Shown here: piece by piece, positions 2,420-11,887 of the stretch
How the letters are laid out: each line of letters opens with the position of its first letter
How positions within the stretch are numbered: position 1 is the stretch's first letter
Source of the DNA: a virus
Taxonomy: Duplodnaviria > Heunggongvirae > Uroviricota > Caudoviricetes
IMG/VR virus record: IMGVR_UViG_3300029828_000052
Location: 1-14,002 of that record
Direction: 5' to 3' (one strand)
Length of the DNA: 14,002 nt
Notes under the pieces: model-generated
The model's database searches: none
What the model saw: only the letters and a program-made list of their open reading frames with translations
What the model was told of the DNA's origin: nothing
Program-made: the position numbers and the translations under genes

Positions 2420-2623
2420 TTACGGTGCTGGTTTAAGTCCTGCCGGGATTTCGTTATTGTCCATGTGAATAACTTTATCAACCGGATAACAGTTACCGGG
2501 AATTTTCTGTTCTGCTGCGGCAGCCATGCATTCTTTCATCGAACCGTAAATGTCAATAACCAGGTCAACAGGCTCGCCAGTGTTAAGAAAAACAGTCAGA
2601 GTGAGGGCAACAGCAGTATTCAT
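2420..2623 (-). CDS. Small protein (67 aa), YdfD-like position downstream of dicB
   Basis: Internal ATG (2623-2621) of ORF 2420..2677; ATGA start/stop overlap with dicB gives translational coupling; AGGA upstream. Identity as YdfD is by position only. Confidence 0.5.
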   Translation of the reverse strand: MNTAVALTLTVFLNTGEPVDLVIDIYGSMKECMAAAAEQKIPGNCYPVDKVIHMDNNEIPAGLKPAP

Positions 2624-2808
2624 TGCCAGTATCCTTTTTGCATCAGACGTAAACGGGCCAGCATTGAAACAATGCATATTTTATTTAATAGCTCCCGTTC
2701 TTGTTTTCTCTTGTTAATGGCATCTTCAGTAAATACAGGGTTACTGATAGTGACACCAATTTCAAAACAACCTTCAGACGTATTAACGTTTGGTAATAAC
2801 GTTTTCAT
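2620..2808 (-). CDS. dicB: Cell division inhibitor DicB (62 aa)
   Basis: Internal ATG (2808-2806) of ORF 2620..2904 preceded by AGGA; the 62-aa product MKTLLPNVNTSEGCFEIGVTISNPVFTEDAINKRKQERELLNKICIVSMLARLRLMQKGYWQ matches my recollection of DicB in size and sequence; lies about 180 bp downstream of the DicF-like sRNA as in the Qin dicB operon. Confidence 0.8.
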   Translation of the reverse strand: MKTLLPNVNTSEGCFEIGVTISNPVFTEDAINKRKQERELLNKICIVSMLARLRLMQKGYWQ

Positions 2809-2991
2809 TATCGCGTCCTCAACAATGAATTTTGTGATGCAGTGCCTGGTGCCTCCAGGTGACGTTAACCAGTTAACAATTAACGCCGGATACAGAGAAC
2901 CCACCCATAAGAACCAATACGGAAGTCAACTGGCCTTTTTAACTGTTCCGCGTGCGCTGAGCCGCATTCACCGCATCACAAAATTCACTTT

Positions 2992-3050
2992 AAAAAGGGC
3001 GGACATCAGCCAGCAATGAAAACTGATGCCGCCAAAAGGTAATCAACATG
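2992..3050 (-). ncRNA. dicF: DicF-like small RNA with intrinsic terminator (boundaries approximate)
   Basis: Minus strand reads ...UUGAUUACCUUUUGGCGGCAUCAGUUUUCAUUGCUGGCUGAUGUCCGCCCUUUUU. It shares the UUUGGCGG(U/C)AUCAGUUUU core and the GCCGCCCUUUUU-type terminator with DicF as I recall it, and sits immediately upstream of dicB. Confidence 0.6.
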
Positions 3051-3281
3051 GGTTGTTGCAGCTGATTGCCACAACCGGAAGCGCACGGACGAAGATGCCG
3101 GCGGCACGCAACAGAGGGAGAAATAACTTCGCCGTGCGCTTTCGTGTTGTGCCCTGGCTTTTCAGGGATATATCCTTTCAGTAAACTGTCAGTGCCGGAT
3201 TCTTATCCGTGTCCGGCGCACGACCACACGTGGCAGCGTGTTGGTCTCCATTTTTAACCCAGAACCTCAATGGAGGATAAA

Positions 3282-3491
3282 ATGCCAAACAGACCAATAC
3301 ATCCGCTTATTGAAAAACAGATTGAATGTCTGGTTAATCAACTCAGGCAATCAGGGTTATTAAAAACTCATTCAGAGTTAAGACTCACGGAATCAGCATT
3401 TGACGATAAATTAAATAATGCGCTTTATAATGGCATCATTGATTACAATCGTGGTGCTGGTCGCCGTGGCCCTGCTGGTACTGCTTTGTAA
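3282..3491 (+). CDS. Hypothetical small protein (69 aa), convergent with the 212-aa gene
   Basis: ATG at 3282 with GGAGG 5 nt upstream (the ORF track start at 3270 lies inside that SD). Only ORF in a 440-bp stretch. Stops back-to-back with the opposing gene (TAATTA at 3489-3494). No recognisable family. Confidence 0.4.
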   Translation: MPNRPIHPLIEKQIECLVNQLRQSGLLKTHSELRLTESAFDDKLNNALYNGIIDYNRGAGRRGPAGTAL

Positions 3492-4130
3492 TTACCAGTT
3501 AATCCAGAGCGGATAGTGTTCAGCATAAATATAGCTATACACATCCAGGTTGTATTTGTGGTCTGTCCTTAGCAGGTCGCAAATACACGCCGCAGCTTCC
3601 AGGGAAGCGGCTTTGTTGCTGAATAACCATGTAGCAACATTCCAGCGATTATCTTTATCCCACTCTTTTGCGAGAGCTGACACCACGAAGGAGCCGTTGG
3701 TGTTGCCATCAAATACTTCCGTTTCCAGATTTTTAAGTAATGCCTGGTGAATTTTTGCCAGGTATTCAGTCGGAATTTCGCCACGAATTCGGATAAGGTT
3801 GTCATAAACAAACATGTTTCCCGCATATGGCGATTTTTCTTCCTTGTTTTTTAAACCAGCATCATGAGCAAACTGATCAATTTCTTCTTCCGTTGGTTTT
3901 GTATTGATGTTTTGCGCTGTCGCTTCTGCAATTTTCTTTGCCACATTCTCTGGGTCGTGTTTATTTACAGACGCACAGAAATACAATCCGGTAAACGCAT
4001 CGCGCACATTACGAACCATATTATCGATGGCTTCTTTTTCTACGGTACTCAGGTCAAGAGTCGCCAGTTGGGAACGAACTATATTCGCTGCCGTTTCCTG
4101 GAATTGCATTGGTAAATCTTTAAATTCCAT
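3492..4130 (-). CDS. Hypothetical protein (212 aa), no recognisable family; part of an apparent insertion between the ydfC-like gene and DicF
   Basis: Complete ORF in the track; start lies 22 nt downstream of the ydfC-like stop with a GAGG-type SD; translation looks protein-like, not low-complexity. Confidence 0.75.
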   Translation of the reverse strand: MEFKDLPMQFQETAANIVRSQLATLDLSTVEKEAIDNMVRNVRDAFTGLYFCASVNKHDPENVAKKIAEATAQNINTKPTEEEIDQFAHDAGLKNKEEKSPYAGNMFVYDNLIRIRGEIPTEYLAKIHQALLKNLETEVFDGNTNGSFVVSALAKEWDKDNRWNVATWLFSNKAASLEAAACICDLLRTDHKYNLDVYSYIYAEHYPLWINW

Positions 4131-4152: not shown

Positions 4153-4371
4153 TTAACGCGGGTATGTAATCATTCTGGCAATGCTTAATGCCGCTGCTTT
4201 TTCCAGCCTGGTGATATCCTGCTCCAGAGCGGACAGATTTTCAGCCTGCTTAGCCCTGGCTTCATTGGCCCATTTCAGATCCTGCGCTGCATTAATTTTC
4301 TGGCGCATCCACTCATAAAGTTCATCATCGGTATAGTCTGGCGCGATGATGACGGGTTCTCGTTTCTGCAT
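4153..4371 (-). CDS. YdfC-like small protein (72 aa)
   Basis: Complete ORF with GAGGA SD; position and size match ydfC of the dicB operon. Confidence 0.7.
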   Translation of the reverse strand: MQKREPVIIAPDYTDDELYEWMRQKINAAQDLKWANEARAKQAENLSALEQDITRLEKAAALSIARMITYPR

Positions 4372-4401
4372 ACTGAATTCCTCGCGGTGATGTTTCGCTT
4401 A

Positions 4402-4530
4402 TCAGCCGTTATATTTTGCCGAACTGGAAAGCGCCTGTTTAAATTCGTTGAAGCTGAGAGCTTCTTCGCCTTCGGCAAGGCCTTCGAAGTATTCTTCGTA
4501 AGCCTTTTCCATGATTGTGTCGAAATCCAT
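4402..4530 (-). CDS. YdfB/YdaG-like small protein (42 aa)
   Basis: My own translation (below the ORF-track size cutoff): MDFDTIMEKAYEEYFEGLAEGEEALSFNEFKQALSSSAKYNG. ATG sits 1 nt after the upstream gene's stop; AGGTGAG SD. Confidence 0.6.
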   Translation of the reverse strand: MDFDTIMEKAYEEYFEGLAEGEEALSFNEFKQALSSSAKYNG

Positions 4531-4531
4531 A

Positions 4532-4687
4532 TCACTCACCTGAGTTTCTTTCCAGCCAGCGACGCGCGCCAGATTCGGTTTTAAACATTTTGCTTTTGGT
4601 ATACGTCATCGCGGTGAACGTGCCGTCCTGGTTTGGGAACACGCCGCATACCAGAGATTCGTTGTTACCAAGATCGATAGTATCCAT
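4532..4687 (-). CDS. YdfA/YdaF-like small protein (51 aa)
   Basis: Internal ATG (4687-4685) of ORF 4532..4780 with GAGG SD: MDTIDLGNNESLVCGVFPNQDGTFTAMTYTKSKMFKTESGARRWLERNSGE. The 31-codon upstream extension runs through the operator sequence and is not used. Confidence 0.65.
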   Translation of the reverse strand: MDTIDLGNNESLVCGVFPNQDGTFTAMTYTKSKMFKTESGARRWLERNSGE

Positions 4688-4765
4688 ATTGACCTCATTT
4701 CCCCTTAACGCCGGGGTAGCGGAACTGTTTGCTGAGAACACCGTGCGGTGTCTTGATGGGTGGTA

Positions 4766-4877
4766 ATTTAGTTTTCTCATGAATTCTGGTCAAGTATTTT
4801 TAATGAGAAAACTCAACATTTAATGCAAAATAAAGCCAATACATTGAAATGTAAGGCTTTAAAATTTGTGAAGGGGG
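4766..4877. promoter_or_regulatory. Leftward early promoter/operator region (PL/OL-like) with two operator-like palindromes
   Basis: AT-rich intergenic region between repressor stop and first early-left gene. TGAGAAAACTCA at 4804-4815 and imperfect copy TTTAGTTTTCTCAT at 4768-4781, centres about 34 bp apart; same motif as the operator at 5336-5349. Confidence 0.5.
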
Positions 4878-11522: not shown

Positions 11523-11674
11523 AAACGGTTTGCGGGAAAAGGAGAGTTAAGTAGAATTGCTGCGGGTGCTTGAGGCTATCTGCCTCAGGCATGAACACCA
11601 AAAGGCAGATAGAGAAAAGCCCCAGTTAACATTACGCGTCCTGCAAGACGCTTAACATTAATCTGAGGCTCCCT

Positions 11675-11887
11675 ATGCATGACAACATCAGGTTAGCCTC
11701 TTACGTGCCGAAAGGCAAGGAGAAGCAGGCTATGAAGCAGCAAAAGGCGATGTTAATCGCCCTGATCGTCATCTGTTTAACCGTCATAGTGACGGCACTG
11801 GTAACGAGGAAAGACCTCTGCGAGGTACGAATCCGAACCGGCCAGACGGAGGTCGCTGTCTTCACAGCTTACGAACCTGAGGAGTAA
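11675..11887 (+). CDS. Mok-like reading frame (in-frame N-terminal extension of hok, 70 aa)
   Basis: Complete 70-aa ORF that contains Hok; this architecture matches the annotated chromosomal mok/hok pairs as I recall them. Confidence 0.5.
   Translation: MHDNIRLASYVPKGKEKQAMKQQKAMLIALIVICLTVIVTALVTRKDLCEVRIRTGQTEVAVFTAYEPEE
11732..11887 (+). CDS. hokD: Hok/Gef-family type I toxin (51 aa), HokD-like
   Basis: MKQQKAMLIALIVICLTVIVTALVTRKDLCEVRIRTGQTEVAVFTAYEPEE: single transmembrane helix and conserved C-terminus typical of Hok; followed by a 3' stem-loop and an intrinsic terminator. Confidence 0.85.
   Translation: MKQQKAMLIALIVICLTVIVTALVTRKDLCEVRIRTGQTEVAVFTAYEPEE

What the first reader, a model, noticed from the sequence alone, without database searches (positions are those of the whole stretch)
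2992..3050. DicF-like sRNA with a conserved core and terminator but a different 5' segment
The minus strand encodes an RNA matching DicF in its central UUUGGCGG-AUCAGUUUU segment and terminator, but the 5' portion (CAUGUUGAUUACC...) and the loop differ from the K-12 DicF I recall. If the divergent parts contribute to target pairing, this variant may have a different target set.
Basis: partly seen in the sequence, partly recalled or inferred. Interest (0 to 1): 0.5.

Follow-up and report, generated by a model that had tools for sequence, protein, structure and literature searches.

The report
Divergent allele of the DicF RNA
This prophage carries, where the known small RNA DicF normally sits, an undescribed natural allele that keeps DicF's terminator base but replaces every segment DicF uses to recognise its known targets, so it probably does not regulate the same genes.

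Summary
Window 2992-3050 (minus strand) encodes a 59-nt RNA: a 17-nt single-stranded 5' segment, a -20.1 kcal/mol terminator hairpin and a U tail. It lies between ydfABC-like genes and dicB in a lambdoid prophage, where dicF lies in E. coli K-12.

It matches Rfam DicF significantly (39.4 bits, E 4.8e-7) but below the curated cut-off of 48; K-12 DicF scores 76.7.

It belongs to a recurrent allele I call class B, found in roughly 2-4% of 5,426 complete E. coli genomes and 73 IMG/VR contigs. It was unannotated under every listed hit. The same locus also holds classes A (K-12, 73% of genomes), C, D and E. All share only the GGCGG/CCGCC hairpin base and the flanks.

The divergent parts are those that pair with xylR, ftsZ, pykA and manX in K-12. 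My accessibility-corrected pairing scan recovers all four K-12 sites (-9 to -12.6 kcal/mol). For class B it finds nothing comparable on those targets or on 18 dcw-cluster genes.

Best reading: a dicF allele with lost or changed specificity that still terminates transcription upstream of dicB. Expression, the 5' end and real targets are untested.

Separately, this window alone lacks about 93 nt of the DicF precursor.

The parts
2992..3050 (-). The 5' end is not known; the Rfam match is 2997-3048.
   Evidence: The same 67-nt stretch is 100% identical in 5 complete E. coli genomes and about 98.5% identical in about 80.
3034..3050 (-). Single-stranded 5' segment CAUGUUGAUUACCUUUU (subtype b1). It replaces the K-12 xylR-pairing segment UUUCUGGUGACG. 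It ends in a U-rich stretch next to the hairpin.
   Evidence: Unpaired in the minimum-free-energy fold. At least 10 different 5' segments occur with the class-B hairpin, and b1 also occurs with the class-C hairpin.
2998..3033 (-). Intrinsic-terminator hairpin: 5' arm 3033-3021, 9-nt loop 3020-3012 (UUCAUUGCU), 3' arm 3011-2998 with one bulged U. The GGCGG/CCGCC base is shared by all allele classes.
   Evidence: -20.1 kcal/mol, against -15.9 for the K-12 hairpin.
2992..2997 (-). CUUUUU tail of the terminator.
   Evidence: Identical in K-12.
2776..2999 (-). Structured leader between the terminator and dicB. It includes a roughly 20-bp helix formed by GUGAAUUUUGUGAUGCGGUG and CACUGCAUCACAAAAUUCAUUG. 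It gives a weak match to Rfam STnc100.
   Evidence: RF02076 at 29.7 bits (gathering score 47), E 1.5e-4. The fold of 2800-3105 has a z-score of -4.59. 53/55 identical to K-12 over the first 55 nt.
2620..2808 (-). dicB (62 aa), the gene downstream of the RNA on the same strand.
   Evidence: Pfam PF05358 DicB, E 6e-40, full length. Annotated as dicB in related genomes.
3063..3066 (-). Junction of a deletion of about 93 nt (GGCAAT | CAGCTGCAAC). It removes a three-hairpin element of the DicF precursor that is present in K-12 and in every other class-B locus examined.
   Evidence: The junction sequence is absent from IMG/VR and from metagenome contigs. The best complete-genome match needs two pieces.
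4153..4780 (-). Upstream genes of the same operon: ydfC-like (4153-4371), ydfB-like (4402-4539) and ydfA-like DUF1391 (within 4532-4780). A promoter-like site lies at 4793-4765.

Best explanation
This is a natural allele (class B) of dicF, the small RNA and terminator element of the dicB-type early operon of lambdoid prophages.

Shown:
- It occupies the dicF position and strand.
- It shares with K-12 dicF the U-rich stretch, the GGCGG.AUCAGUUUU core, the CCGCCC-U5 terminator base and the downstream dicB leader.
- It forms a stronger terminator hairpin than K-12 dicF.
- Its 5' segment and its loop plus 3' stem are different sequences.

Inferred:
- As in K-12, the operon transcript that starts upstream of ydfA probably ends at this hairpin. 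That would limit read-through into dicB.
- Every segment that gives K-12 DicF its specificity is replaced. These are the 5' end for xylR and the loop plus 3' stem for ftsZ, pykA and manX. This RNA should therefore not regulate xylR, pykA or manX, and should not inhibit ftsZ translation by the canonical pairing.
- If it is an active riboregulator, it acts on other, still unknown mRNAs through its free 5' segment or its 9-nt loop.
For: Identity as a dicF allele:
- Covariance-model match at E 4.8e-7 over the whole model.
- Segment-wise alignment to K-12 dicF.
- Synteny with ydfA/B/C-like genes, a DicA-like repressor, Cro, YdaT and dicB.

It is a recurrent allele rather than a decayed copy:
- 220 of 5,426 complete genomes match most of the 67-nt query. 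About 102 records are at 90% identity or more.
- 73 IMG/VR contigs carry the class-B hairpin with an almost invariant sequence.

Terminator: -20.1 kcal/mol, z -3.56, U5 tail.

No sigma-70-like site lies directly upstream on the minus strand. The nearest is upstream of the ydfA-like gene. [quoted passage not shown]

Loss of K-12 specificity. The same scan that recovers the K-12 sites finds nothing comparable for class B:
- xylR: K-12 -12.6 kcal/mol; class B -1.2.
- pykA: K-12 -12.5; class B -4.9, at an unrelated site.
- manX: K-12 -11.8; class B -7.4, at a different site.
- ftsZ, extended pairing: K-12 -8.9 to -10.5; class B above +3.4.

Published genetics assign the K-12 5' end to xylR and the 3' part to ftsZ and pykA (PMC5069750).
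Against: - No expression, processing or Hfq-binding data exist for this allele.
- The 5' end is unknown. By alignment, the K-12 RNase E site falls next to the hairpin, so the mature RNA might carry little or no 5' seed.
- No convincing target was found. The best class-B scores on 18 dcw-cluster translation-initiation regions (TIRs), the mRNA stretch around each start codon, are -0.9 to -7.9. ftsZ, at -7.3, does not stand out.
- The 5' segment is hypervariable among class-B loci. This fits weak constraint as well as it fits diversification.
- Within class B the hairpin is no better conserved than the adjoining dicB leader.
- A minimal hairpin allele (class D, L333) shows that the locus can keep only a terminator.
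- My pairing model is a simplified IntaRNA-like scan, and a whole-transcriptome search could not be run.
Confidence: 0.55

Rival explanations
1. It is only an operon-internal intrinsic terminator or attenuator upstream of dicB. The RNA fragment it leaves has no trans-acting function, and the sequence differences from K-12 are neutral or hitch-hiking variation in a terminator hairpin.
For: - All allele classes keep a GC-rich hairpin base plus U tail, but share nothing else.
- Class D is a bare 20-nt hairpin.
- No target better than background was found for class B.
- In K-12, transcripts extending beyond dicF were not detected.
Against: - K-12 DicF, which has the same architecture, is a proven Hfq-dependent regulator.
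- Identity between classes drops from 53/55 in the flank to 10/18 inside the hairpin. This sharp, cassette-like boundary is not expected from uniform neutral drift.
- The class-B loop AUUGCUGG is constant across loci whose 5' segments differ. Part of that set was retrieved with a pattern that fixes TGCTGGCTGATG.
Confidence: 0.3
2. It is still a cell-division inhibitor. It represses ftsZ through residual or alternative pairing: AGUUUUC with GAAACU just upstream of the start codon, the loop UUUCAUUG with ftsZ +10..+19, or the 5' segment UUGAUUACC with ftsZ +32..+40.
For: - The blocks conserved between classes (CAGUUUU and CCGCCC) are two of the three blocks of the K-12 DicF-ftsZ duplex.
- A 9-bp match between the 5' segment and ftsZ +31..+41 scores -7.3 kcal/mol. 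The loop match scores -3.4.
Against: - The anti-Shine-Dalgarno block ACUCCG is missing.
- The extended duplex is unfavourable for class B (+3.5, against -8.9 to -10.5 for K-12).
- The match between the 5' segment and ftsZ is no better than shuffled segments (p = 0.16). None of 11 other 5' segments beats its shuffles (p 0.18-1.0).
- ftsZ does not stand out among 18 dcw TIRs.
- The hairpin is more stable, so its 3' arm is less available.
Confidence: 0.12
3. It is a chance resemblance to DicF, or a short protein-coding gene. ATG at 3049-3047 opens a 19-codon frame that ends at TAA in the U tail.
For: - The Rfam score is below the gathering threshold.
- An ATG-to-TAA frame exists in this window.
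Against: - The E-value is 4.8e-7, the synteny is exact and the flanks are near-identical to K-12.
- The commonest class-B allele has one U fewer in the loop, which shifts the frame.
- No Shine-Dalgarno sequence precedes the ATG.
Confidence: 0.03

Closest known systems
DicF sRNA of the Qin prophage, E. coli K-12 (Rfam RF00039)
   Same: - Same locus and strand: downstream of ydfABC, upstream of dicB, in a DicA/DicC-type immunity region.
- Same U-rich stretch plus GGCGG.AUCAGUUUU core (17/18 identical).
- Same CCGCCC-U5 terminator base (11/11).
- Same downstream leader (53/55).
- Same overall architecture: a short 5' tail followed by a single terminator hairpin.
   Different: - The 5' segment is unrelated (6/14), and the spacer to the upstream GCTGCAAC motif is 10 nt shorter.
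- The loop plus 3' stem is replaced (10/18).
- The hairpin is more regular and more stable (-20.1 against -15.9 kcal/mol).
- The Rfam score is 39.4 against 76.7 bits.
- Predicted pairing to ftsZ, xylR, pykA and manX is lost.
Other alleles at the same locus found here: classes C, D and E
   Same: - Class C (GGCGGGUAUCCGUUUUGUUUUUCCCAUGAUACCCGCC) carries exactly the window's 5' segment, CAUGUUGAUUACCUUUU, and the same flanks.
- All classes share the hairpin base and the U tail.
   Different: The hairpin interiors are unrelated. Class C gets no Rfam DicF hit at all. Class D is a minimal hairpin. Class C's loop has a 9-bp anti-Shine-Dalgarno match to ftsZ (-7.8) that class B lacks.
sRNAs derived from mRNA 3' ends or internal terminators and bound by Hfq (general class)
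   Same: A terminator hairpin preceded by a U-rich stretch and followed by a U tail. The presumed origin is processing of a longer operon transcript.
   Different: Hfq binding, processing and any seed are untested for this allele.

Membership tests
DicF (Rfam RF00039) | Covariance-model score at or above the curated gathering score (48 bits) | tested here: not met
   39.4 bits for the window. Other class-B loci score 38.7-45.4. K-12 DicF scores 76.7. The match is nonetheless significant (E 4.8e-7) and covers model positions 1-52.
DicF (Rfam RF00039) | Position between ydfC-like genes and dicB, on the same strand, in a lambdoid prophage early operon | tested here: met
   dicB at 2620-2808 (Pfam E 6e-40). 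DUF1391/ydfA, an HTH repressor, P22-type Cro and YdaT are also present. Annotated relatives agree.
DicF (Rfam RF00039) | Single Rho-independent terminator hairpin with a GGCGG/CCGCC base and a U tail at the 3' end | tested here: met
   -20.1 kcal/mol, z -3.56, CUUUUU tail. The base pairs are invariant in all 12 allele representatives. The simple terminator scanner misses it because the loop is 9 nt and the stem has a bulge.
DicF (functional definition: antisense inhibitor of ftsZ translation) | Extended complementarity of the loop and 3' stem to the ftsZ ribosome-binding region (-28..-1) | tested here: not met
   K-12 scores Ehyb -26.5, Etot -8.9 to -10.5. Class B in the same register scores Ehyb -18, Etot about +3.5 to +5. 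The anti-SD block ACUCCG is absent. This is an in-silico result only.
DicF (functional definition) | 5' end complementary to xylR (+11..+21); 3' part complementary to pykA (-18..+1) and manX (+35..+53) | tested here: not met
   K-12 scores -12.6, -12.5 and -11.8. Class B scores -1.2, -4.9 at another site, and -7.4 at another site.
DicF | Accumulates as an RNA of about 53 nt, made by RNase E (5' end) and termination or RNase III; binds Hfq | not testable with these tools
   The K-12 facts come from bioRxiv 10.1101/2023.04.14.536235 and PMC5069750. No data exist for class B.
STnc100 (Rfam RF02076), considered for the adjoining dicB leader only | Covariance-model score at or above the gathering score (47 bits) | tested here: not met
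   29.7 bits for window 2776-2999. The homologous leaders of K-12 and other loci score 32.5-39.1.

The most novel reading that the evidence does not exclude
The dicF locus may be a cassette-like polymorphism. At least five hairpin interiors (classes A-E) and more than ten 5' segments are recombined between constant flanks. The non-K-12 alleles (B and C, each in a few percent of E. coli genomes, often alongside class A in the same genome) would then be active Hfq-type sRNAs with their own regulons. On this reading, prophages diversify sRNA target specificity by swapping seeds on a fixed terminator scaffold, and current annotation misses all of these alleles.
Probability: 0.3. Interest if true: 0.65.

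Novelty: new variant of a known kind. Interest (0 to 1): 0.4.

Why it matters
DicF is one of the oldest and best-studied prophage sRNAs. It links prophage induction to cell division (ftsZ), sugar metabolism (xylR, pykA, manX) and, in EHEC, virulence. Published surveys treat it as one sequence. One used copies more than 99% identical (PMC5069750, Fig. 9 legend). Another scored it as 'lost' in strain SE11, which in fact carries this class-B allele (PMC3318445).

If the class-B and class-C alleles are expressed, strains that look DicF-negative, or that carry several 'copies', may hold functionally different regulators. Conclusions about DicF dosage in pathogens would then need revisiting.

If they are only terminators, the locus still shows how an sRNA can arise from, or decay to, an operon-internal terminator.

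Practically, the Rfam gathering score (48 bits) excludes every non-K-12 class tested here.

Tried and rejected
1. The hypervariable 5' segments of class B might all target ftsZ in different registers. Several looked complementary. None of 12 segments beats 500 shuffles of itself (p 0.16-1.0). Rejected.

2. The class-B loop might be an anti-start-codon for the downstream genes of its own operon. It has 10 bp with the dicB AUG region and 11 bp with the DUF1482 AUG region. The energies are +0.56 kcal/mol (117 of 150 loop shuffles do as well) and -5.2 kcal/mol (12 of 150). The window-wide count of complementary runs equals the shuffle expectation (about 100). Rejected.

3. Looking for targets within the prophage window by an energy scan gave only -7 to -9 kcal/mol hits scattered on both strands, apart from the trivial antisense match. 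Uninformative.

4. Looking for covariation across allele classes found only the 5-bp base to be alignable. It is invariant, so it gives no covariation support.

6. RNAduplex-style global duplexes were misleading because of long, loop-rich pairings. I replaced them with windowed duplexes plus opening energies.

7. Faubladier & Bouché 1994, Melson & Kendall 2019 and Murashko & Lin-Chao 2017 could not be read. I therefore cannot exclude that dicF-related sequence variants were shown there. No paper in the searchable library prints the class-B sequence or discusses natural DicF alleles.

8. A small-ORF reading (19 codons) was rejected because the frame is not conserved among class-B alleles.

Full report
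**1. The observation**

The minus strand of 2992-3050 reads CAUGUUGAUUACCUUUUGGCGGCAUCAGUUUUCAUUGCUGGCUGAUGUCCGCCCUUUUU.
- A default Rfam scan of the window reports only a sok RNA at 11564-11737.
- At a relaxed threshold, RF00039 (DicF) matches 2997-3048 on the minus strand over the entire model. The score is 39.4 bits, E 4.8e-7, against a gathering score of 48.
- The core pattern occurs once in the window, with 0.01 matches expected by chance.
- The RNA folds into a single hairpin of -20.1 kcal/mol with a z-score of -3.56. A 17-nt tail is unpaired on the 5' side and CUUUUU follows on the 3' side.

**2. Comparison with authentic DicF**

I fetched K-12 MG1655 dicF (b1574, 53 nt). It scores 76.7 bits with the same model. 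Identity to the window allele, by segment:

| Segment | Identical positions |
|---|---|
| 5' segment | 6/14 |
| Core UUUGGCGG.AUCAGUUUU | 17/18 |
| Loop plus 3' half of the stem | 10/18 |
| CCGCCCUUUUU | 11/11 |
| Next 55 nt downstream | 53/55 |

The 5' segment and the loop differ, and so does the 3' arm of the stem. The window also has a spacer 10 nt shorter between the conserved upstream motif GCTGCAAC and the core.

**3. Context**

The RNA sits in a lambdoid prophage early operon, all on the minus strand.
- A promoter-like site lies at 4793-4765.
- It is followed by a ydfA-like gene (DUF1391), ydfB- and ydfC-like ORFs and an extra 212-aa ORF.
- Then come the RNA, dicB (2620-2808; Pfam DicB, E 6e-40) and a DUF1482 gene.
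- An exonuclease gene follows and runs off the window.
- A DicA-like HTH repressor, a P22-type Cro and YdaT lie upstream.
- Annotated relatives show the same order.

This is the K-12 Qin arrangement, dicA-ydfABC-dicF-dicB. The RNA is therefore the positional counterpart of dicF. No sigma-70-like site lies directly upstream of it on the minus strand. This fits the K-12 finding that DicF is processed from the dicBp transcript.

**4. It is a recurrent allele, one of several**

In 5,426 complete E. coli genomes:
- The 67-nt class-B query finds 220 genomes with most of the query covered. Five are at 100% identity and about 80 are at 98.5%, which is one U fewer in the loop. No feature is annotated under any of the 40 listed hits.
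- The K-12 type is in 3,974 genomes.
- A third type, class C, matches in 204 genomes.
- The B and C queries partly cross-hit because they share the 5' segment. Each class therefore occupies roughly 2-4% of genomes.
- Some genomes carry A and C together, for example NZ_CP025916.1.

In IMG/VR:
- 73 contigs hold the class-B hairpin.
- It is attached to at least ten different 5' segments.
- A sample anchored on dicB rather than on the RNA gave class A 34, class C 28 and class B 9. It also gave one minimal hairpin (class D, L333), one locus with an unrelated sequence at that position and 7 loci without the downstream anchor. A further type, class E (L076), came from the first IMG/VR pattern scan.
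- Subtype b1, the window's 5' segment, occurs with both the B and the C hairpins.

All classes fold into terminator hairpins of -10 to -21 kcal/mol. They share only the 5-bp GGCGG/CCGCC base, which is invariant.

Rfam scores for the non-K-12 classes:
- Class-B alleles: 38.7-45.4 bits.
- Class E: 37.8 bits.
- Class C: no hit.

Every non-K-12 class tested therefore falls below Rfam's gathering score.

A published survey scored dicF as lost in strain SE11 (PMC3318445). SE11 in fact carries class B between ydfC and dicB.

**5. What the divergent parts do in K-12, and what is lost here**

Published genetics show two things (PMC5069750):
- The DicF 3' region pairs with the ftsZ ribosome-binding site and with pykA.
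- The 5' end pairs with xylR.

I wrote a windowed duplex scan with opening-energy correction, using ViennaRNA duplexfold and unpaired probabilities. Results in kcal/mol:

| Target | K-12 DicF (class A) | Window allele (class B) |
|---|---|---|
| xylR | -12.6 (DicF nt 4-15 with xylR +11..+21) | -1.2 |
| pykA | -12.5 (nt 26-43 with -18..+1) | -4.9, at an unrelated site |
| manX | -11.8 (nt 35-54 with +35..+53) | -7.4, at a new site on the manX Shine-Dalgarno |
| ftsZ, extended three-block duplex | -8.9 to -10.5 (nt 26-53 with -28..-1) | above +3.4 |
| ftsZ, best short matches | | -3.4 (loop with +10..+19); -7.3 (5' segment with +31..+41) |

- The match between the 5' segment and ftsZ is not better than shuffled segments (p = 0.16). 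The same holds for eleven other natural 5' segments.
- Across 18 TIRs of the dcw cluster, class B scores -0.9 to -7.9, and ftsZ does not stand out.
- The anti-Shine-Dalgarno block ACUCCG of K-12 DicF is absent from class B.
- The class-B hairpin is 4 kcal/mol more stable, which makes its 3' arm less available.

**6. Mechanism**

Shown:
- Homology and synteny with dicF.
- A strong intrinsic-terminator hairpin.
- Replacement of all the known specificity segments.
- Recurrence as a discrete allele.

Inferred:
- The operon transcript probably ends at this hairpin and so gates dicB. In K-12, no transcripts extending beyond dicF were detected.
- The 3' fragment is probably trimmed to a small, Hfq-type RNA.
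- That RNA has lost the K-12 regulon.

Whether it has a regulon of its own is open. I could not run a whole-transcriptome search, because only fragments of a host genome could be fetched.

The sharp drop in identity inside the hairpin, between near-identical flanks, and the reuse of one 5' segment with two hairpins argue for cassette-like exchange rather than uniform drift. However, within class B the hairpin is no better conserved than the adjoining leader, and the 5' segment is hypervariable. A purely terminator role therefore remains a serious rival (confidence 0.3).

The 5' end is unknown:
- The Rfam alignment places it at 3048.
- By alignment to K-12, the RNase E site falls close to the hairpin.
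- A GA|UU dinucleotide context at 3043/3042 would fit the RNase E preference as I recall it from the literature. I did not test this here.

**7. Ideas tested and dropped**

- Autoregulatory pairing of the loop with the dicB and DUF1482 start regions.
- Targets within the prophage itself.
- A 19-codon ORF, whose frame is not conserved.

**8. A separate feature of this window**

Relative to K-12 and to every class-B relative examined, the window lacks about 93 nt just upstream of the RNA, at the junction GGCAAT|CAGCTGCAAC near 3063-3066.
- The missing piece is a three-hairpin element inside what in K-12 is the 190-nt RNase III-generated DicF precursor.
- The junction is absent from IMG/VR and from metagenome contigs.
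- No complete E. coli genome matches across it in one piece.
- The flanking sequences CCGUGCGCU and AGCGCACG can pair, and both are retained. They lie near the estimated position of the K-12 RNase III cut. That position is my own estimate from the 190-nt length.
- The window as a whole is a mosaic. The best complete-genome match covers 69% of it at 95% identity.

**9. Verdict**

The finding is real and correctly interpreted. It is a divergent, recurrent and, in every listed genome hit, unannotated allele of dicF, and its known target-recognition segments have been replaced. It is a new variant of a known kind. Interest is moderate, limited by the lack of expression data and of any predicted target.

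Noticed in passing
window 3063-3066 (minus strand); compare L002, L004, L005, L251: The window lacks about 93 nt, a three-hairpin element (CCGCGAAAUGGCGCGG..., GGGG...CCCC, GGGUUGUCA...UGACAACCC). K-12 and all other class-B loci carry it between the putative RNase III stem and DicF. The junction was not found in IMG/VR, in metagenome contigs or in complete E. coli genomes. Rfam has no family for this element.
   Followed up: partly
window 2776-2999 (minus strand): The dicB leader is highly structured (z -4.59 for 2800-3105). It has a roughly 20-bp helix joining the sequence just 3' of the DicF terminator to the sequence just 5' of the dicB Shine-Dalgarno, which makes it an obvious RNase III substrate. 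It matches Rfam STnc100 below threshold (29.7 bits here; 32.5-39.1 in other loci).
   Followed up: partly
window 11564-11737 (+): A sok antisense RNA (RF01794, 118 bits, E 5.8e-27) overlaps the start of a 70-aa ORF at 11675-11887. This indicates a hok/sok-type toxin-antitoxin locus in the prophage.
   Followed up: no
L006 2900-3075 (Actinobacillus phage vB_Apl-pPE4, PP818812.1): This phage record carries two tandem copies of a class-C DicF-like unit (5' segment b1 plus the class-C hairpin). They lie upstream of a gene annotated as kil rather than dicB. The neighbouring genes (DicA, YdaT, exodeoxyribonuclease VIII) look like those of E. coli lambdoid phages.
   Followed up: no
L049 4732-5215 and L076 894-1359: In these IMG/VR contigs, the DicF-like hairpin and the STnc100-like leader are followed by isrK (RF01394, 59.6-63.6 bits) and C4 antisense RNA (RF01695, 76.7-80.3 bits). 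These are above threshold.
   Followed up: no
L401 2366-2379 (K-12 ftsI leader, -48..-35): The K-12 DicF 5' segment (nt 1-13) has a predicted -11.3 kcal/mol interaction upstream of ftsI. This is as strong as its validated targets in the same scan. It does not apply to the window allele.
   Followed up: no
L400 (E. coli SE11, NC_011415.1 1781402-1781467): SE11 was scored as having lost dicF in a 27-genome survey (PMC3318445). It carries the class-B allele between ydfC and dicB, and this record annotates no ncRNA there.
   Followed up: yes
window 3270-3491 (+) and 3492-4130 (-): Two ORFs (73 aa and 212 aa) lie between the ydfC-like gene and the RNA. Neither has a Pfam match. Relatives annotate them as hypothetical proteins, and K-12 Qin lacks them.
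   Followed up: no
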